From a virus (Duplodnaviria; Caudoviricetes): a DNA stretch of 58,190 nt. Shown here piece by piece: positions 1 through 13,897 of the stretch. The notes below the pieces were generated by a model. It did not search any database. It saw only the letters and a list, made by a program, of their open reading frames with translations, and was not told the DNA's origin. The stretch covers positions 1 to 58,190 of the IMG/VR virus record IMGVR_UViG_3300027861_000036. One strand, 5' to 3'. Numbering within the stretch: position 1 is the first letter of the stretch; each line of letters starts with the position of its first letter. Made by a program: the position numbers and the translations under genes.

Positions 1-103
1 TTGGAGAATACTCCTCATTTTTTAATGCTGCTCTCCGGATGAAGAACAACTGGTGCTGTTTGTTGAAACACATACACTGTTGTTTTTTGTGTTATAGAAT
101 CCC

Positions 104-319
104 CTATACCGACATGGCATAAGGGTTTTTTGGTTTGACAAATAACCCTTCTTTGATGAAGGAGTTCTCTTGGTCATCAGACCATTTGTCTGTTGCCACT
201 TCCGGCAAACTATGGAGAACTTTTTCTGCTTCCTCTTTTGTAGAGAAAACAAGAAGAGGATGCATAACAGGTTGGGCTTTGCATCCTCTAACAAGGATGT
301 AAACGGTTGTATTCTCCAT
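104..319 (-). CDS. Small hypothetical protein (71 aa)
   Basis: ATG start with an A-rich leader on the minus strand; VFSTKEEAEK resembles small phage early-gene proteins; no family recognised. Confidence 0.5.
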   Translation of the reverse strand: MENTTVYILVRGCKAQPVMHPLLVFSTKEEAEKVLHSLPEVATDKWSDDQENSFIKEGLFVKPKNPYAMSV

Positions 320-385
320 GTTATATAGTTTTTAGACACGGTTAATAAAAATGTAAGGGATGTTTGTTACCTTACTTCAATAGCC

Positions 386-1163
386 ACTTAGCTTTCTTTA
401 TAGAATGCTAAGTCCTACCATTATCTGATGCTTCTAAAGCTGGGTCAGAATCCTCCTGTAAAATGGAACTGCACAGTAAGCATTTATACCTGTTGCTACT
501 TGGCTTAGCATAGCAGGTAAAGCTACAGTTCCTATAAGCTTTTGGGTAGAGAGAATAAACTGACAAGCCAAGGTTGTATAAAGAAAAGTTGGTTGTCATG
601 ATGGTGGCACTTAAAGGGTATCCTTATTAAGCATAATACTATACTATAGCTTACTGTAGTCTTTTATTTTTCTGCAAACATCCGGTTAACAACCTTCTGC
701 TCACAAAACTCTCTACCCAAAGACTAGCCTATAGTAATAGTATATGCTCATAATAGACACCCAATGCCTATTTTTAGCCATATCCATAATAGATATGACC
801 GTGAAAAAAACTAAAATACATGCTTATATGAATGTATGGTGAGTATGATCACCCACTTATTCACACAAACATGCATTTTATTTTGTTTTGCGTGTAAAAA
901 AATACCCTAAACCAAACATAATATGGAACAGTGGTCATACTAATTGGTATAACCCCCGGTAATCTTAGCACTTATTGCAAAATCACCCAAATATAATTTG
1001 GTTTAGAGTATTAGCTTGAATAATTACAAGCGTCTAGGTATGTGCGCATTACACATACCTATTTCTCAACTTTGTCAATGGTGTGAGTAACCATGTTCAG
1101 TAATTGTCACCATGCAGGTAGCAATGCTACGGCAGACATAGTGAACTTGGGGTTGCTAACCCC
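386..1163 (-). ncRNA. Candidate large structured non-coding RNA
   Basis: About 10 stems in an ORF-poor interval, e.g. 812-833/859-880 (22 bp), 901-916/997-1012 (16 bp), 1035-1044/1052-1061 and 616-649/729-762. Most mismatches are A.C on + (G.U on -). Boundaries approximate. Confidence 0.55.
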
Positions 1164-1179
1164 TTCCTCAGGCAAAGGA

Positions 1180-1719
1180 CTACGCTAGTAGACCTTTAGA
1201 CCTGAGGAACGCCACCACGTCTTCCTTCAGCTTGACACTGGCTGGAATCACAACACCGTTAGCTGAGGCGTGAGCCCGAAGCTGAGGGAGTGTGCTTTCA
1301 GCAGTGACAGCTGGAAGCTGTGGTGCAGTGTTGACACAACACCAGTAGCCACCAGTGGCAACGCCACTTTTGGTGATTGGTGCTGTGTCATCCAACAACC
1401 AGTTGGAAACCAGCTGAGAGTCACCGTTGAAAACGGTCTCCATCTGGTTTGTAAACTTGTTGTAGGCAAGACCTTCTGTACACCTGTTCAGAAGTTCTTG
1501 CACTGCAATGTCTGTGATAGGAAGGGCATTGCCCTCACTGTCACAGGGATTGATGAATCCCCACTTCCGTGGGGTTGAATCCTGCACGCGACTGTACCTC
1601 ATGGTACCGTCTGCTTGCAGAGCTCCGCAAGTTTGGTTTCCCGCACTTGTGGAGACGTAGAAGAAGAAGCCACCTGCCTTGGTAGGTCGCGCCTGCTTCA
1701 AGTATACTTTGTGTTTCAT
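1180..1719 (-). CDS. Hypothetical protein with a C-terminal HeH/SAP/Rho-N-like helical motif
   Basis: Likely start is the ATG at 1719 (MKHKVYLK) rather than 1782; C-terminus STLPQLRAHASANGVVIPASVKLKEDVVAFL fits the T..QLR..A...G..IP....K.D.V..L pattern; GC about 50% versus about one third elsewhere. Confidence 0.7.
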   Translation of the reverse strand: MKHKVYLKQARPTKAGGFFFYVSTSAGNQTCGALQADGTMRYSRVQDSTPRKWGFINPCDSEGNALPITDIAVQELLNRCTEGLAYNKFTNQMETVFNGDSQLVSNWLLDDTAPITKSGVATGGYWCCVNTAPQLPAVTAESTLPQLRAHASANGVVIPASVKLKEDVVAFLRSKGLLA

Positions 1720-2004
1720 TACAATGAAATTTAAAGTGTACAATGGCAAAATTGCCACACAGCGGGGGTATCCCAACTGCAAATCTTAGCCGGGGAGCGG
1801 GACTCTAGGACCCACACCCAACCCCAAACACATAACATTGTTATCACCTATTTCTGTATTACCGGGGTTATTTGCTGGTGTCCTTTTTTTTGTTGTTATT
1901 AGAGATATTTGTTTATAAAGAGTTAATGTTGTATTATGGAGGGGGGGTTGTTTAGGGTTTATGTAAGGGGTATTGCATTTTGTTAATTATAAAAGTTTAT
2001 TATT

Positions 2005-2286
2005 ATGGGGGATTATAAAAAGGTGGATTTTGGTGGGGACATTAGTGATGAGATGTTGGATTTGGCATTTGATAATAGTTACCGGATATTTATTGGGGAG
2101 GCTACATTTAAGGAGATTGTTAAAGATAATGATGATGGGGTTGTTGTGTTGGCTCATGACCCAGGGGAGGGTTTTACTGATGAGAACCTGGAGGATATAA
2201 TATTGTATTATGAGTATGTGGAATATTATGAGAGGTGTGGGGTGTTAAAAGATTTAATTAAGGAAAGGAGTAAAAAAAAAGGTTAA
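2005..2286 (+). CDS. Hypothetical acidic protein
   Basis: 93-aa ORF heading the + strand gene run; C-terminal EYYERCGVLKD is UVR-like. Confidence 0.65.
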   Translation: MGDYKKVDFGGDISDEMLDLAFDNSYRIFIGEATFKEIVKDNDDGVVVLAHDPGEGFTDENLEDIILYYEYVEYYERCGVLKDLIKERSKKKG

Positions 2287-2312
2287 ACTTTTTTAATTTA
2301 CTTGAGAATTTT

Positions 2313-2327
2313 TATATTTGTATTATT
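2313..2327 (+). promoter_or_regulatory. Putative promoter (TAnnTTTG followed by TATTATT)
   Basis: TATATTTG matches the Bacteroidota sigma-A -7 consensus TAnnTTTG; similar elements sit in the gaps at 12592, 17594 and 43464. Confidence 0.35.
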
Positions 2328-2350
2328 GTAAATATAAAAAGGTATATGTT

Positions 2351-2656
2351 ATGGAACAGGAAAAAGTAATTAAAGAAGAGCAGCCTGATGTGCAGATGTC
2401 TCAGGATGAGTTGAATGAGAGAAGGGCTAAGGTCACAGAGTTTTACAGGGATAACATTGAGCATCTTACTGTGCAGTTGGAGTATGAGAAGATACTGACA
2501 GAGATAGAGGAGCACCGTGCAAAGAGGTTGCAGGCTCAGATGTTTATAGCTGAGGCTATGGCAGCACAGCAGGAAGATCCTACACGTACTCAGGCACGTG
2601 AGGAATTTGATGAGGCTATGGATACAATGGCTAAGAGAACTTTAAAACGTACATGA
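2351..2656 (+). CDS. Hypothetical coiled-coil protein
   Basis: E/Q/A-rich helical ORF; start more likely MEQEK (2351) than 2318; stop overlaps the next start (ATGA). Confidence 0.75.
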   Translation: MEQEKVIKEEQPDVQMSQDELNERRAKVTEFYRDNIEHLTVQLEYEKILTEIEEHRAKRLQAQMFIAEAMAAQQEDPTRTQAREEFDEAMDTMAKRTLKRT

Positions 2657-11777: not shown

Positions 11778-12138
11778 AGTTCTGATTGAAAGAGATGTGC
11801 TTATAAGAATAGCATCTCAACTGGATAGTTTTGAGGTTCTAAAAAAATTAGAGATTGAATATCTTTCTTTTAAAGACTCTTGTGTTATATTAACAAATAC
11901 TCAAATGGAGTATATAGGAACACAGGATATGTTGATATTTAATAAGAGTAAGCAAATAGAAAATTTACAAGCCTCAGAAACTGAGTATAAAGGATTAGTT
12001 GATATTAATGAAAATCTTGTAAAAGTATATCAGAAAAAAGCTAAAATTGGAAGACGTAATACTGTTATTAGTCTTGTAGGCGGAGGAGTTTTAACACTAG
12101 GATTAACAACAGCTTTGATAATAAGCATAGTTCAATAG
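11704..12138 (+). CDS. Signal-peptide protein with a C-terminal TM helix (spanin-like)
   Basis: MKHILLVIIGIALMLPSSADC leader, coiled coil, C-terminal VISLVGGGVLTLGLTTALIISIV; overlaps the previous ORF by 74 nt. Confidence 0.55.
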   Translation: MKHILLVIIGIALMLPSSADCQEDKVLIERDVLIRIASQLDSFEVLKKLEIEYLSFKDSCVILTNTQMEYIGTQDMLIFNKSKQIENLQASETEYKGLVDINENLVKVYQKKAKIGRRNTVISLVGGGVLTLGLTTALIISIVQ

Positions 12139-12200
12139 TGCTTATTTAAGAAATTAAGTAAAATATTAAATAAGGATAGTTCTTAATAAAGATAAGTATT

Positions 12201-12325
12201 GGGGGAGTTTAAATCTATTCTTGGTAGGACATTTATTTTACTTCCCCTTTATTTGTTTGATTTGTGTTTTTAATTTGTGCGCTAGGGAGTTAGGTTTCAA
12301 GTGCTTAGCTCTCTAGTTTTATTTT
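12201..12325 (+). terminator. Hairpin, U/G-rich linker, then intrinsic terminator (possible sRNA)
   Basis: Stem 12201-12208/12240-12247; 14-bp stem 12281-12294/12304-12317 with G.U pairs on +, followed by TTTATTTT. Confidence 0.6.
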
Positions 12326-12328
12326 ATT

Positions 12329-12517
12329 ATGAAAAAAAAAGAAAATTTACTTGCTGTAATTAGTAGTCCTGAATACAATGCTACAGTTACAGCTTTTGTT
12401 GTTAACAGCACAGTTAGCATTAAGGGTTTAGTGTACAATGTGGAAAACAAGAAGAATACTAATTATGAAGTAAATCTTGTATTATTCCCTGATGGTACAG
12501 CTAGAGTCATAGAATAA
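12329..12517 (+). CDS. Small hypothetical protein
   Basis: 62-aa ORF filling the gap, with an alternating beta-strand-like pattern. Confidence 0.4.
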   Translation: MKKKENLLAVISSPEYNATVTAFVVNSTVSIKGLVYNVENKKNTNYEVNLVLFPDGTARVIE

Positions 12518-12591
12518 AAGCCTTATATTTTTTTTAGCTATATACTATTTAAATTATTTTTTATACAAAAATATTTTAAGTTTAAAAGATA

Positions 12592-12608
12592 TAACTTTGC
12601 GTATATTA
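12592..12608 (+). promoter_or_regulatory. Putative promoter for the capsid genes
   Basis: TAACTTTG (TAnnTTTG) then CGTATATTA, about 40 nt before the scaffold-like gene. Confidence 0.4.
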
Positions 12609-12640
12609 TCTTATAATTAATTTTTAAAACCAACTATATT

Positions 12641-13897
12641 ATGACAAACGAAACAAAAAACATGGAGACATCTGTGGAAACAGTAGACATTAACCTTGAT
12701 GAAATTTTTGATGGTGCTCCATCTGCAGAAGGTGTTACATTACCTGAAGAAACTAAAGGTAATATTTTTAAAAACTTAAGTAGTGATGTTGATTTAACAT
12801 TTGCAGAAACCGCTGATGTAGAAGAAACTGAAGAAACTGAAACAGAAGAAACTGGAGCAGAATTCAAAGCTGAAACTTTTAAAAAAGCTGAAGAAGTATT
12901 TGATGAATTAGATGATTTAGATGATGAAGTAGAACAAAAAGTAGAAAAAAGAGGAAGAAAAAGAATAAGTGGTATTTCTGATGTATTTTCAAAGCTTATT
13001 AAAGATGATAAGATTGTTCCGTTTGATGATGATAAAAATTTAGAAGATTATTCTGCTAAAGACTGGGAAGAACTTATTGAAGCTAACCTTGAAGAAAGGG
13101 CTAATCAAGTAAGAAGAGAAACCCCTAAGCAGTTTTTTGAAAGTTTACCTGAAGAATTACAAATTGCAGCAAGATATGTAGCTGATGGAGGTCAGGATTT
13201 AAAAGGTTTGTTTTCTACATTAGCTTATGTTGAAGAATCCAGACAACTTGATGTATCTGATGAAGGAGATCAAGAATCAATTATTAGAGAATATCTTTCT
13301 GTTACAGGATATGGTGATAGAGAAGAGATAGAAGAAGAAATTGAAATTTGGAAAGATTTAGGAAAGCTTGAAAAACAAGCTTCTAAATTTAAACCAAAGT
13401 TAGACAAGATGAAAGAACAGGTTGTTGCTAGAAAGCTGCAAGAGCAGGAAATGAAAAGAGCACAGCAAGAACAAGCATCAAAGCAATATATGTCTAACGT
13501 ATATCATACGTTAAAAGATGGTACATTAGGTGATGTTAGAGTTGATAAAAAAACACAAGCCATGCTTTATAATGGCTTAGTGCAACCTAACTATCCTTCA
13601 GTAAGTGGTAGAAATACAAATCTATTAGGGCATCTTTTAGAAAAATACCAATTTGTTGAACCTAATTACACATTAATTGCAGAAGCTTTATGGTTATTGT
13701 CAGATCCTGTACAGTATAAAGCAAAGATAATGAGTAAAGGAGCACAGAAAAACATAGAGAAAACTGTTAGAAAGCTTAAAACAGAACAAGCTAATAATAC
13801 TACTACTTCTCACGGCATTCAAAAAACTGAACAAGCCGCAAGTAGAAAATCAAAAAAGAAATTACAAAGATCAAATAACATATTTAGAAGAATTTAA
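12641..13897 (+). CDS. Acidic scaffolding-like protein
   Basis: Very D/E-rich N-half, coiled coil and basic C-tail; directly upstream of the MCP as in crAss-like phages. Confidence 0.7.
   Translation: MTNETKNMETSVETVDINLDEIFDGAPSAEGVTLPEETKGNIFKNLSSDVDLTFAETADVEETEETETEETGAEFKAETFKKAEEVFDELDDLDDEVEQKVEKRGRKRISGISDVFSKLIKDDKIVPFDDDKNLEDYSAKDWEELIEANLEERANQVRRETPKQFFESLPEELQIAARYVADGGQDLKGLFSTLAYVEESRQLDVSDEGDQESIIREYLSVTGYGDREEIEEEIEIWKDLGKLEKQASKFKPKLDKMKEQVVARKLQEQEMKRAQQEQASKQYMSNVYHTLKDGTLGDVRVDKKTQAMLYNGLVQPNYPSVSGRNTNLLGHLLEKYQFVEPNYTLIAEALWLLSDPVQYKAKIMSKGAQKNIEKTVRKLKTEQANNTTTSHGIQKTEQAASRKSKKKLQRSNNIFRRI

What the first reader, a model, noticed from the sequence alone, without database searches (positions are those of the whole stretch)
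386..1163. Candidate large (about 800 nt) minus-strand structured RNA
Seen: there is no convincing ORF here, but helices are nearly continuous: 386-392/407-413, 499-506/565-572, 616-649/729-762 with inner 657-664/719-726, 779-784/792-797, 812-833/859-880, a multibranch domain closed by 901-916/997-1012 holding hairpins 933-940/947-954 and 958-963/982-987, then 1014-1018/1027-1031, 1035-1044/1052-1061, 1078-1083/1108-1113, 1118-1122/1126-1130 and 1149-1154/1158-1163. All four mismatches in the 22-bp helix, and the single mismatches in the 901, 933 and 958 helices, are A.C on +, i.e. G.U on -. This fits selection on RNA pairing rather than DNA palindromes. The strand matches both flanking genes. 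Known: phages encode large structured ncRNAs (GOLLD, ROOL). I do not recognise this as tmRNA, RNase P or a group I/II intron.
Basis: partly seen in the sequence, partly recalled or inferred. Interest (0 to 1): 0.8.

Follow-up and report, generated by a model that had tools for sequence, protein, structure and literature searches.

The report
Orphan hairpin-rich noncoding RNA tract, marine crAss-like phage
An 800-base gene-free stretch in the small-gene arm of an uncultured marine crAss-like phage folds far better than chance, and only on the strand of its neighbouring genes, so it is very probably a real non-coding RNA built from a chain of long hairpins, but it has no retrievable relatives and its function is unknown.

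Summary
All 14 listed helices exist. The minus strand of 340-1180 folds at -274 kcal/mol, z -9.2. The plus strand gives z -4.4. G.U pairs sit only on the minus strand. No ORF opens under four genetic codes. Rfam and ARAGORN find nothing.

The reading as "one large structured RNA like GOLLD or ROOL" is only partly supported. Every strong helix is local, so the tract is a chain of about ten hairpin modules. Two modules are followed by U-runs. Contigs of relatives in other seawater samples diverge at or near module borders. No homologue could be fetched, so covariation was not tested. No RNA run holds the stretch.

The flanking genes, and the first early-arm gene of related phages, are also over-folded on both strands, without conserved pairings. 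The tract is therefore the extreme, RNA-specific part of a wider hairpin-dense island.

Best reading (0.45): a modular non-coding part of the early transcript that shapes transcript ends and stability and leaves stable hairpin RNAs. The closest published analogue is the abundant early intergenic RNAs of Cellulophaga phage phi14:2. This scan has noted similar tracts in other crAss-like phages.

The parts
1180..1722 (-). Upstream gene m180 (180 aa from the ATG at 1722). It has a beta-rich N-terminal part and a C-terminal HeH/SAP-like helix pair. GC is about 51%, and its DNA is over-folded on both strands.
   Evidence: ORF. Four homologues at 74-96% identity (alignment A1). The profile search finds 19 proteins with E up to 0.001, among them full-length P0005 and P0007. 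P0007 has a Pfam HeH match at 25 bits, below the cut-off of 28.9. AlphaFold mean pLDDT is 58. Folding z is -7.3 (minus) and -10.0 (plus) for 1180-1870.
1149..1163 (-). 6-bp G+C-rich hairpin that starts 17 nt after the m180 stop codon.
1095..1146 (-). 19-pair hairpin (2 G.U, one C.C mismatch). It is about equally good on both strands.
   Evidence: z is -2.6 on both strands for 1095-1163. Contigs of relatives in runs X3 and X4 diverge at 1094/1099, at its border (table 7).
1014..1061 (-). 11-pair hairpin (1035-1061) plus a 5-pair hairpin (1014-1031).
   Evidence: z is -5.3 (minus) and -5.2 (plus). Helices verified.
896..1012 (-). Three-way-junction domain: a 17-pair closing stem (901-917/996-1012) holding two 11-pair hairpins. 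A run of seven U follows (902-896), two of them inside the stem.
   Evidence: z is -6.1 minus against -1.9 plus, with 0 of 200 shuffles as good on minus. Helices. The U-run is read. The simple terminator scan did not flag it.
800..892 (-). Long hairpin of 38 pairs (5 G.U, one bulge, two mismatches). An A-run and a run of seven U (810-804) overlap its base.
   Evidence: z is -6.9 minus against -3.2 plus.. A contig in run X3 diverges at 870, inside its arm. A weak half-match to the relatives' control box lies at 870-831: 9.8 bits, reached by 2 of 200 shuffles.
777..799 (-). 10-pair hairpin with a 3-nt loop.
606..768 (-). 163-nt composite hairpin with stacked helices of 6, 32, 10, 11 and 4 pairs (9 G.U in all) and a 10-nt internal loop at 709-718.
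   Evidence: z is -6.2 minus against -3.6 plus for 616-762..
541..553 (-). Single-stranded segment perfectly complementary (13 nt) to 709-721, that is to the internal loop of the 606-768 hairpin plus 3 nt. It is a candidate pseudoknot or alternative pairing.
   Evidence: Inverted repeat I18. A perfect inverted repeat of 13 nt is reached by 2 of 150 dinucleotide shuffles. The loop is unpaired in the MFE.
353..598 (-). Weakly structured 3' third with small hairpins 561-598, 465-532, 378-449 and 353-375. It overlaps an unsupported 63-aa ORF (408-599).
   Evidence: z is -2.0/-0.3 for 465-598 and -2.65/-2.6 for 378-449. The ORF is, has no homologue and no PHROG match.
104..319 (-). Downstream gene m71 (71 aa), also over-folded on both strands.
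   Evidence: Weak DUF7336 match at 18.8 bits, below the cut-off of 25. The only database match is the window's own protein. z is -5.5 plus and -5.9 minus for 104-339.

Best explanation
The tract 386-1163, with its core at 600-1163, is the non-coding part of a minus-strand transcription unit in the variable small-gene ('early-type') arm of a marine crAss-like phage. It lies between m180 and m71. It is a chain of about ten autonomous RNA stem-loop modules, not one globular RNA.

Shown: the helices exist; they are far better than chance; they favour the minus strand through G.U pairs; nothing codes here; no known RNA family matches.

Inferred:
(1) The tract is co-transcribed with m180, because only 17 nt separate the stop codon from the first hairpin.
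(2) The long duplexes (17-38 pairs) and the two hairpin-plus-U-run modules act in cis. They pause or end transcription, give entry sites for a double-strand-specific RNase, and block 3' exonucleases. This sets how much m180 and m71 message is made and leaves stable hairpin RNA fragments.
(3) The modules are exchanged between related phages by recombination at their borders.

Whether the stable fragments also act in trans, as a decoy or sponge, is open.
For: Folding and strand bias: (numbers are in the observation check).

RNA rather than DNA. The strand asymmetry is large with RNA energies and nearly vanishes with DNA energies (z -6.57 minus, -5.75 plus). In the helices that fold on both strands, the transition-type non-Watson-Crick positions are all G.U on minus and none A.C on minus.

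Modular, local architecture. Every helix with domain z of -5 or lower spans 165 nt or less.

U-runs. They follow the 3-way junction (902-896) and the 38-pair hairpin (810-804), read.

Non-coding in a compact genome. No other stretch of 200 nt or more lacks a plus ORF of 60 aa or more in 2005-54900. Alternative codes open nothing.

Linkage and mosaicism. An 854-nt contig from another seawater run covers 723-1574 with 79 differences and 9 gaps, so m180 and the 5' half of the tract stay joined at roughly 90% identity. Other contigs match 990-1094 or 870-906 and then run into unrelated sequence at 1094/1099 (a module border) and at 870 (inside a hairpin arm) (tables 7 and 8).

Position. In related phages the same place, just downstream of the first minus-strand gene, is also gene-free. 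It holds a conserved box without RNA structure, then hairpin-bearing non-coding sequence folded better on minus than on plus in 7 of 8 loci tested, z(minus) -0.5 to -5.1.

Precedent. In the crAss-like Cellulophaga phage phi14:2, two long intergenic regions of the early arm are transcribed above most genes, appear at the earliest time point and stay abundant; their function is unknown (bioRxiv 10.1101/2020.03.07.982082, passages read).
Against: There is no transcript evidence of any kind.

No homologous sequence could be aligned, so no pair is supported by covariation.

The simple terminator scan did not flag either U-run hairpin (6 sites found in 1-2400, none in 386-1163), and their stems are far longer and more A+U-rich than textbook terminators.

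Eight hundred bases is very long for a purely cis-acting spacer.

The flanking coding regions, and the first genes of relatives, are over-folded on both strands. That fits a DNA-level cause for at least part of the island.

The phi14:2 intergenic regions are not over-folded (z -0.3 and -1.2 on the transcribed strand), and one of them turns out to be a tmRNA, so the analogy is only positional.

That this arm is 'early' is inferred from gene order in crAss-like phages, not shown.
Confidence: 0.45

Rival explanations
1. It is one discrete trans-acting large ncRNA of about 560-800 nt with a defined tertiary fold, in the manner of GOLLD, ROOL or phi29 pRNA. It may work together with the neighbouring HeH-domain protein m180.
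For: Its size and strand-specific folding. A 13-bp perfect complement joins the largest internal loop (709-718) to a downstream single strand (541-553) and could be a pseudoknot. The global MFE closes the whole tract with 450-463/1164-1180. m180 stays joined to the 5' half in a roughly 90% identical relative. m180 carries a nucleic-acid-binding HeH/SAP-like motif.
Against: All strong helices are local. The 13-bp match is reached in length by 2 of 150 shuffles. The outer closure is 13 pairs with a mismatch and is only partly kept in the centroid. Long near-perfect duplexes are unlike the short conserved helices and junctions of the known large RNAs (recalled). Relatives' contigs break at or near module borders. 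No Rfam match. No RNA-protein test was made.
Confidence: 0.2
2. It is a DNA-level element: hairpin-prone DNA, folding as cruciforms or as single strands, at the head of the early arm. It could serve entry of the virion RNA polymerase, which prefers single-stranded DNA, or replication or packaging. The RNA fold would then be a by-product.
For: The hairpin density does not stop at the non-coding tract. 1180-1870 has z -7.3/-10.0 and 104-339 has z -5.9/-5.5. The first minus-strand gene of 8 of 8 tested relatives has z of -4.4 or lower on at least one strand, down to -10.3, with no consistent strand bias. Twelve homologous first genes share no consensus structure, which suggests generic foldedness. 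The phi14:2 virion RNAP transcribes single-stranded and denatured DNA but not double-stranded M13 DNA, transcribes its own double-stranded genome only weakly, and shows no common early promoter motif. N4 virion RNAP uses hairpin promoters (recalled).
Against: Inside 600-1012 the pairing is strongly one-sided. The asymmetry is much larger with RNA than with DNA energies. The better-folding strand is the non-template strand for the flanking genes, whereas N4 hairpins form on the template strand (recalled). phi14:2's own early arm is only mildly over-folded (mean z -1.5 over 13 windows).
Confidence: 0.15
3. It has no function of its own. It is an accumulation of selfish or accidental palindromic modules (MITE-like insertions, or template-switch 'quasipalindrome' mutations) in a hypervariable arm that tolerates junk.
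For: The whole m180-tract-m71 cassette is absent from 80 of 80 related loci and from 5 of 5 near-complete related genomes. Breakpoints fall at or near module borders. Pairings are not conserved in the neighbouring gene family.
Against: There are no other copies of any module in the rest of the window or in the 80 loci. One 21-nt probe found nothing in 185,579 species genomes, and four probes (28-mer and three 18-19-mers) found no relative in IMG/VR; exact probes miss copies that differ by even one base. No target-site duplications or terminal inverted repeats were seen. The complete absence of A.C against many G.U on one strand is not expected from neutral decay. Pieces are 93-100% identical across independent samples.
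Confidence: 0.12
4. The 3' third is not RNA structure but a small protein gene (ORF 408-599, 63 aa, minus strand). The structured RNA would then be only about 600-1163.
For: It is the only ORF of 60 aa or more in the tract and lies on the right strand. This part folds weakly (z -2.0 and -2.65).
Against: No homologue among 5.8 billion proteins (not even the window's own copy is on record as a called gene). No PHROG match.
Confidence: 0.08

Closest known systems
Early long intergenic non-coding RNAs of Cellulophaga crAss-like phage phi14:2 (g004-g005 and g005-g006 junctions; bioRxiv 10.1101/2020.03.07.982082, passages read)
   Same: A marine crAss-like phage. Gene-free stretches of about 700 nt among small genes of the early arm, on the same strand as the flanking genes. 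The function is unknown.
   Different: There is no sequence similarity. The phi14:2 stretches are not over-folded (z -0.3 and -1.2). One of them is a tmRNA by ARAGORN and Rfam, which the window's tract is not. The phi14:2 RNAs are shown to be transcribed; the window's tract is not.
Promoter-early stem-loop (PeSL) cassettes of T4-type phages (PMC2839356, abstract read)
   Same: Stem-loops in a hyperplastic region rich in non-essential small genes. Recombination between the cassettes shuffles modules, which fits the breakpoints at or near hairpin borders.
   Different: PeSLs are short, repeated, conserved cassettes with a strong sigma-70-like promoter. Here the modules are all different, much longer, present once, and no promoter excess is seen (9 sites found against 7.1 expected).
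RNase III processing hairpins between early genes of phage T7 (recalled, not looked up)
   Same: Intergenic duplexes of 20 bp or more with internal mismatches on the mRNA strand, which cut and stabilise a polycistronic early message.
   Different: T7 has one hairpin of about 60 nt per junction. Here about ten modules fill 800 nt. Cleavage has not been tested.
GOLLD and ROOL large phage-associated RNAs (recalled; both recalled to be Rfam families)
   Same: Size class (500-800 nt) and phage context.
   Different: No match at gathering score or at E up to 10. The architecture is long near-perfect local hairpins, not many short conserved helices with pseudoknots (recalled). No family of relatives is known.
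Gene-free 'control box plus hairpin modules' leaders of marine crAss-like phages
   Same: The same place in the genome (head of the minus-strand small-gene arm), the same build (a chain of hairpin modules with strand-specific G.U), and the same kind of phage. I found the box and a core hairpin independently in this window's relatives.
   Different: The window lacks the core hairpin (best E 2.8). It has at most a half-remnant of the box (9.8 bits, reached by 2 of 200 shuffles). Its folding is far stronger (z -9.2 against -0.5 to -5.1 in 8 relatives).
Genome-scale ordered RNA structure (GORS) of some RNA viruses (recalled)
   Same: Strong excess folding energy across coding and non-coding sequence without positionally conserved pairs, as in the first genes of this phage clade.
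   Different: This is a DNA phage. The effect is confined to one genome arm, and in coding regions it is present on both strands.

Membership tests
Any Rfam 15 family (including tmRNA, RNase P, group I/II introns, GOLLD, ROOL, OLE, HEARO, as far as they are in the library) | Covariance-model score at or above the family's gathering score | tested here: not met
   There are 0 matches in the whole window at gathering score. At E up to 10 on 1-2100 there are 11 matches, most of them miRNA-precursor families; the best is 23.2 bits against a gathering score of 94.
tRNA / tmRNA | Cloverleaf or tRNA-like domain with a tag reading frame | tested here: not met
   ARAGORN finds 0 genes in the window. 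The same tool finds the phi14:2 tmRNA, so the method works on this kind of phage.
Group I / group II intron | Interrupts a host gene whose exons join into one frame, and has a ribozyme core | tested here: not met
   No Rfam intron match. The flanks are two complete small ORFs, not exon halves. No reverse transcriptase is found in the window (PF00078).
   The box is found in 27 loci of the 82 sequences searched. In the window only the upstream half matches, 870-831, at 9.8 bits, E 0.0013 in 2 kb. Two of 200 dinucleotide shuffles reach that score. The invariant 3' block is not matched.
Marine crAss-like 'control box + core hairpin + modules' leader | Conserved core hairpin of about 45 nt | tested here: not met
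   It is found in 15 loci. The best window match has E 2.8 and is on the wrong strand.
phi14:2-type early intergenic lncRNA | Abundant, early and persistent transcript from a long intergenic region of the early arm | not testable with these tools
   No RNA run is listed for this stretch. The position and the gene-free nature are met. There is no sequence similarity.
PeSL cassette (T4-type phages) | Sigma-70-like promoter joined to a terminator stem-loop, repeated through the region | tested here: not met
   Promoter-like sites: 9 found against 7.1 +/- 2.6 expected, none placed before a module. No repeated cassette.
Intrinsic terminator | G+C-rich stem of 5-20 pairs, loop of 3-8 nt, followed by a U-run | tested here: inconclusive
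   The scan flags no site in 386-1163. Runs of seven U do follow the 3-way junction and the 38-pair hairpin, but the stems are A+U-rich and much longer than the consensus.
RNase III processing site | Cleavage of the duplex by RNase III | not testable with these tools
   Duplexes of 17-38 pairs exist. No cleavage data.
CRISPR repeat mimic (RNA anti-CRISPR) | A solitary unit resembling a host CRISPR repeat | tested here: not met
   A recalled end motif of Cas13b-type repeats gives 5 window matches against 2.6 expected, none in 1-2000. This is a weak test: the host and its repeats are unknown.

The most novel reading that the evidence does not exclude
The first ~1.9 kb of this arm (m180 coding sequence, hairpin tract and m71), and the equivalent first gene of the whole phage clade, are under selection for generic single-strand foldedness. 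This is tied to the crAss-type virion RNA polymerase, which needs single-stranded template and has no promoter motif. Hairpin-prone DNA would let the polymerase in and keep template and product apart. The RNA copy of the non-coding tract, optimised with G.U pairs, would then persist as a stable structured RNA. That would be a structure-specified, sequence-free way of starting phage early transcription.
Probability: 0.12. Interest if true: 0.85.

Novelty: new member of a known kind. Interest (0 to 1): 0.5.

Why it matters
crAss-like phages are among the most abundant viruses in guts and oceans, and how their early genes are expressed and regulated is poorly understood. The one studied marine member makes abundant early non-coding RNAs of unknown function. 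This window adds an extreme example: the most strongly folded 600 nt of the 58-kb record, with a clean strand-specific G.U signature. It also shows that the first gene of the same arm is over-folded on both strands throughout a clade of more than 80 uncultured marine phages, without conserved pairings. If these properties reflect how the ssDNA-preferring virion polymerase works, or how early messages are shaped, they give concrete sequences for biochemical tests. If not, this is one more orphan structured spacer of a hypervariable phage region.

Tried and rejected
Homologue hunts that found nothing:
- blastn (distant mode) against 50,697 phage records.
- blastn of 1-2000 against 80 related loci; only a 30-nt match.
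- tblastn of m180 and m71 against the same loci, 0 of 80.
- DNA search of 5 near-complete related genomes; one 29-nt match at E 0.004.
- A single-sequence covariance model of the 3-way junction (R1) against those 5 genomes and against 38 of the 80 loci plus the window (only the window itself matched).
- The search for related loci with m180 or its alignment in viral, metagenome and genome collections, and with m71.
- A degenerate pattern for a conserved m180 peptide in metagenome contigs: 5 stretches, none related.
- Four exact probes from the tract in IMG/VR (one chance 18-mer match) and one probe in genome contigs.
- Earlier scan notes, searched by place and by sequence: none.

Sequencing runs. 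No RNA holder is listed. Read laying printed only 40 of 128 differences, none inside the tract, so population covariation could not be read.

Scripts that failed or were weak. The ungapped hairpin finder missed bulged hairpins, including the window's own, so I draw nothing from it. The GC-regression z-values are confounded by strand skew; I rely on the shuffle-based values instead.

Ideas dropped:
- Hidden ORF under TAG=Q, table 4 or TAA=Q.
- Retron, DGR or group II element: no reverse transcriptase in the window, although the record is only about 49% complete.
- Cas13b-repeat mimic.
- Window position 1 as a true genome end: the 127-bp terminal repeat of relative G005 looks like an assembly overlap (my inference) and says nothing about real ends.
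- m180 as a homologue of the relatives' first gene: hhalign E 0.009, probability 4.5%, a lead only.
- m180 structure: pLDDT 58, too poor for a fold search. The protein atlas gave only scores of about 0.80.
- A second structured spot at 12130-12650 is a small ORF with flanking hairpins, z -3.1.
- Literature: no paper holds all of 'large structured RNA', 'phage' and 'metagenom'. 'Crassvirales' with 'non-coding RNA' and 'secondary structure' gave 4 papers, none on such RNAs.
- Supplementary tables of the phi14:2 paper (transcript levels, primer-extension sites) were not seen. They may bear on where its intergenic RNAs start.
Full report
WHAT THE WINDOW IS. The window is a whole IMG/VR virus record of 58,190 bases, linear and estimated 49% complete. 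From 2005 onwards all long ORFs are on the plus strand. They include an endolysin, a large terminase subunit (phrog_6681, E 3e-60) and a portal (phrog_6547, E 4e-89). The terminase is only about 25% identical to those of named crAss-like phages (143 records, all below 60%). It is 76-80% identical to those of 80 uncultured viral contigs kept from 563 relatives. Runs that hold parts of 1-2400 are seawater, cold-seep and marine-sediment metagenomes. Bases 1-1870 are the start of the oppositely oriented small-gene arm. By analogy with other crAss-like phages I call it the early arm; that is an inference.

THE OBSERVATION. The 616-649/729-762 helix needs bulges, and RNAfold gives it 32 pairs. The minus strand of 340-1180 folds at -274.2 kcal/mol, z -9.23 against 20 dinucleotide shuffles. 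The plus strand gives -224.2, z -4.37. Taken by domain with 200 shuffles each, the strand-specific core is 616-762 (z -6.2/-3.6), 800-892 (-6.9/-3.2) and 901-1012 (-6.1/-1.9). The 5' hairpins 1014-1163 are equally good on both strands. The 3' third, 378-598, is weak (z -2 to -2.65). The minus MFE holds 32 G.U pairs and no A.C single mismatch. The plus MFE holds 12 G.U and 5 A.C single mismatches. With DNA energies the two strands are nearly equal (z -6.57 and -5.75), so the asymmetry is of the RNA kind.

Nothing codes here. The longest same-strand ORF is 63 aa (408-599), without any homologue. Three alternative stop-codon readings open nothing longer than 92 aa within the tract. No other stretch of 200 nt or more in 2005-54900 lacks a plus ORF of 60 aa or more.

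KNOWN FAMILIES. Rfam 15 gives no match at gathering score in the whole window. At E up to 10 it gives 11 matches, most of them miRNA-precursor families, all far below their cut-offs. ARAGORN finds nothing. There is no reverse transcriptase in the window. The flanks are complete small ORFs, so this is not an intron.

ANATOMY. All coordinates are read 5' to 3' on the minus strand.
- A G+C-rich 6-pair hairpin begins 17 nt after the m180 stop (1163-1149).
- A 19-pair hairpin follows (1146-1095).
- Then come an 11-pair and a 5-pair hairpin (1061-1014).
- Next is a three-way junction closed by 17 pairs (1012-901), followed by a run of seven U, two of them inside the stem.
- Then a 38-pair hairpin (892-800) whose base overlaps an A-run and a run of seven U.
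- Then a 10-pair hairpin (799-777).
- Then a 163-nt composite hairpin (768-606) with a 10-nt internal loop.
- Last come smaller hairpins down to 353.
All strong helices span 165 nt or less. One long-range candidate exists: 13 perfect pairs between the internal loop region 709-721 and 541-553. Two of 150 shuffles give an inverted repeat that long somewhere. The simple terminator scan flags none of the modules.

RELATIVES. I could not obtain a single homologous sequence of the tract. The searches are listed under Tried and rejected. In short: 0 of 80 related loci, 0 of 5 near-complete related genomes, nothing in GenBank phages, IMG/VR, JGI metagenome contigs or 185,579 species genomes, whether by BLAST, by exact probes, by a covariance model of the three-way junction, or through the flanking proteins.

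The upstream protein m180 does have four relatives at 74-96% identity on short public contigs, which the tools cannot fetch. Laying the contigs of four other marine runs on 1-2400 shows that relatives exist. One 854-nt contig spans 723-1574 with 79 differences and 9 gaps. Others cover 852-1002 (11 differences), 990-1094 (2) and 581-731 (1). Three contigs leave the window's sequence at 1094/1099, the border of the 19-pair hairpin, and one leaves at 870. The tool printed only 40 of 128 differences, none in the tract. So the tract is conserved at the 90-100% level across samples and is mosaic at or near module borders, but covariation remains untested. No RNA run holds it.

THE SURROUNDINGS CHANGE THE PICTURE. 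The coding region next door is as over-folded as the tract. 1180-1870 gives z -7.3 on minus and -10.0 on plus, and 104-339 (m71) gives -5.9/-5.5. Two ordinary gene windows give -0.3 to -1.1. One endolysin window gives -4.6 on its sense strand.

m180 is a real gene. It keeps an open frame and a recognisable C-terminal HeH/SAP-like motif in relatives whose C-termini differ in sequence, and it has more distant full-length relatives.

In related phages the first minus-strand gene sits in the same position. In most loci it belongs to a family of about 110 aa; in some (L068, L058, L065) to a different family of about 150 aa. It is likewise G+C-enriched and over-folded. In 8 of 8 loci tested at least one strand has z of -4.4 or lower, down to -10.3, with no consistent strand preference. 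Yet 12 homologous copies of that gene share no consensus structure at all.

Across one relative (L012), 10 of 14 windows of the minus-strand arm have z(minus) of -2.8 or lower, while the two windows beyond the junction are near 0. Two other relatives average -2.2 to -2.8, and phi14:2's early arm averages -1.5. So there is an arm-wide tendency to fold, strongest at the head of the arm and not tied to conserved pairs.

WHAT RELATIVES HAVE AT THE SAME PLACE. Downstream of their first gene, 27 loci keep a box of about 120 nt (alignment A4) with phased short repeats and an invariant A+T-rich 3' block. RNAalifold finds no structure in it, so it is probably a DNA control element. Fifteen loci keep a small conserved hairpin 100-150 nt further on. 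The remaining gene-free sequence folds better on minus than on plus in 7 of 8 loci, but modestly (z -0.5 to -5.1). The window lacks the small hairpin. It has at most a remnant of the upstream half of the box, inside its 38-pair hairpin (9.8 bits; 2 of 200 shuffles reach this).

Earlier notes of this scan on other marine crAss-like phages describe the same layout: a control box, then swappable hairpin modules, 'not one giant RNA'. I treated them as leads. The box and the core hairpin I found independently. The window's membership in that family is not shown.

LITERATURE. In phi14:2, the one marine crAss-like phage with transcriptome data, two long intergenic regions of the early arm are transcribed above most genes. 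They appear at the first time point and stay abundant, and their function is unknown. Its virion RNA polymerase transcribes single-stranded or denatured DNA but not double-stranded M13 DNA, and its own double-stranded genome only weakly. Early transcripts share no upstream motif (bioRxiv 10.1101/2020.03.07.982082, passages read). I fetched that region. Neither stretch is over-folded, and the second one contains a tmRNA. The parallel with the window is therefore positional, not structural.

T4-type phages have promoter-plus-stem-loop cassettes in hyperplastic regions that mediate modular shuffling (PMC2839356, abstract read). The window's modules are not repeated and carry no promoter signal.

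INTERPRETATION. I think the tract is a real minus-strand non-coding RNA region made of independent hairpin modules, co-transcribed with m180. It most likely acts in cis on transcript ends, processing and stability and leaves stable hairpin fragments (confidence 0.45). A single trans-acting RNA with a defined fold (0.2), a DNA-level role of the whole hairpin-dense island (0.15), selfish or accidental palindromes (0.12) and a small gene in the 3' third (0.08, not exclusive) remain open. The steps that would decide between them need DNA of the unfetchable relatives and RNA data.

VERDICT. The tract matches no known RNA family. It is best filed as a new, orphan example of the little-understood structured non-coding tracts in the early arms of crAss-like phages. 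Interest 0.5.

Noticed in passing
L089 (NC_021806, Cellulophaga phage phi14:2) 4031-4500, plus strand: The 'g005-g006 long non-coding RNA' region of phi14:2 contains a tmRNA gene. ARAGORN gives a tag peptide of 11 residues. Rfam tmRNA scores 46 bits, one bit under the gathering score, E 2.6e-16. The RefSeq feature table for this stretch lists no RNA gene, and the preprint calls the function undetermined.
   Followed up: partly
window 1180-1870 and 104-339; L012 4350-4800, L018 4380-4830, L026 4130-4600, L055 4190-4600, L061 3150-3620, L068 2850-3430, L058 2150-2750, L073 2520-2990: The first gene of the minus-strand arm is G+C-enriched and folds far better than shuffles on BOTH strands, in the window and in 8 of 8 related phages tested (z -4.4 to -10.3 on the better strand). 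Twelve homologous copies share no consensus structure. This is unexplained. It could be selection for generic foldedness of DNA or RNA at the head of the arm.
   Followed up: partly
L018 4272-4389, L012 4235-4351, L003 3690-3806, L028 3993-4110 and 23 more loci (minus strand); alignment A4: A conserved non-coding box of about 120 nt lies 88-200 nt downstream of the first minus-strand gene. It has three short repeats phased about 10 nt apart and an invariant A+T-rich 3' block, and no RNA consensus structure. It is probably a DNA control element, a promoter or operator.
   Followed up: partly
L073 2230-2320, L050 1424-1511, L061 2853-2957 and 12 more loci (minus strand): A small, highly conserved hairpin of about 45 nt lies 100-150 nt beyond the box. 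It is identical over 47 nt between some otherwise diverged loci. The window lacks it.
   Followed up: partly
window 12138-12641, plus strand: The second most structured spot of the late region (z -3.1 plus, -1.05 minus). It holds an unlisted small ORF of about 62 aa flanked by hairpins.
   Followed up: partly
window 1-2400 against runs X3 and X4: Contigs of related phages follow the window up to 1094/1099 or from 870 and then continue with unrelated sequence (table 7). Recombination breakpoints fall at or near hairpin-module borders.
   Followed up: no
contig ends of L005, L020, L025, L039, L046, L060, L062, L075 and the window itself: Many independent contigs of this phage group end 5.3-8.3 kb upstream of the terminase gene, that is in or next to this arm. 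This may reflect assembly breaks in a hypervariable or hairpin-rich region. The 127-bp terminal repeat of G005 looks like an assembler overlap (my inference).
   Followed up: partly
L061 1463-1536, minus strand: A tRNA gene inside the small-gene arm of a related phage (74 bits). It explains one folding hot spot seen.
   Followed up: no
window 1180-1722 (m180) against proteins P0006, P0008-P0010: The N-terminal 55-60 residues of m180 match many repeated stretches (12-22 per protein) in giant proteins of 1,364-2,063 aa that carry beta-propeller-type repeats. This may be a shared beta-strand repeat unit or a compositional match.
   Followed up: no
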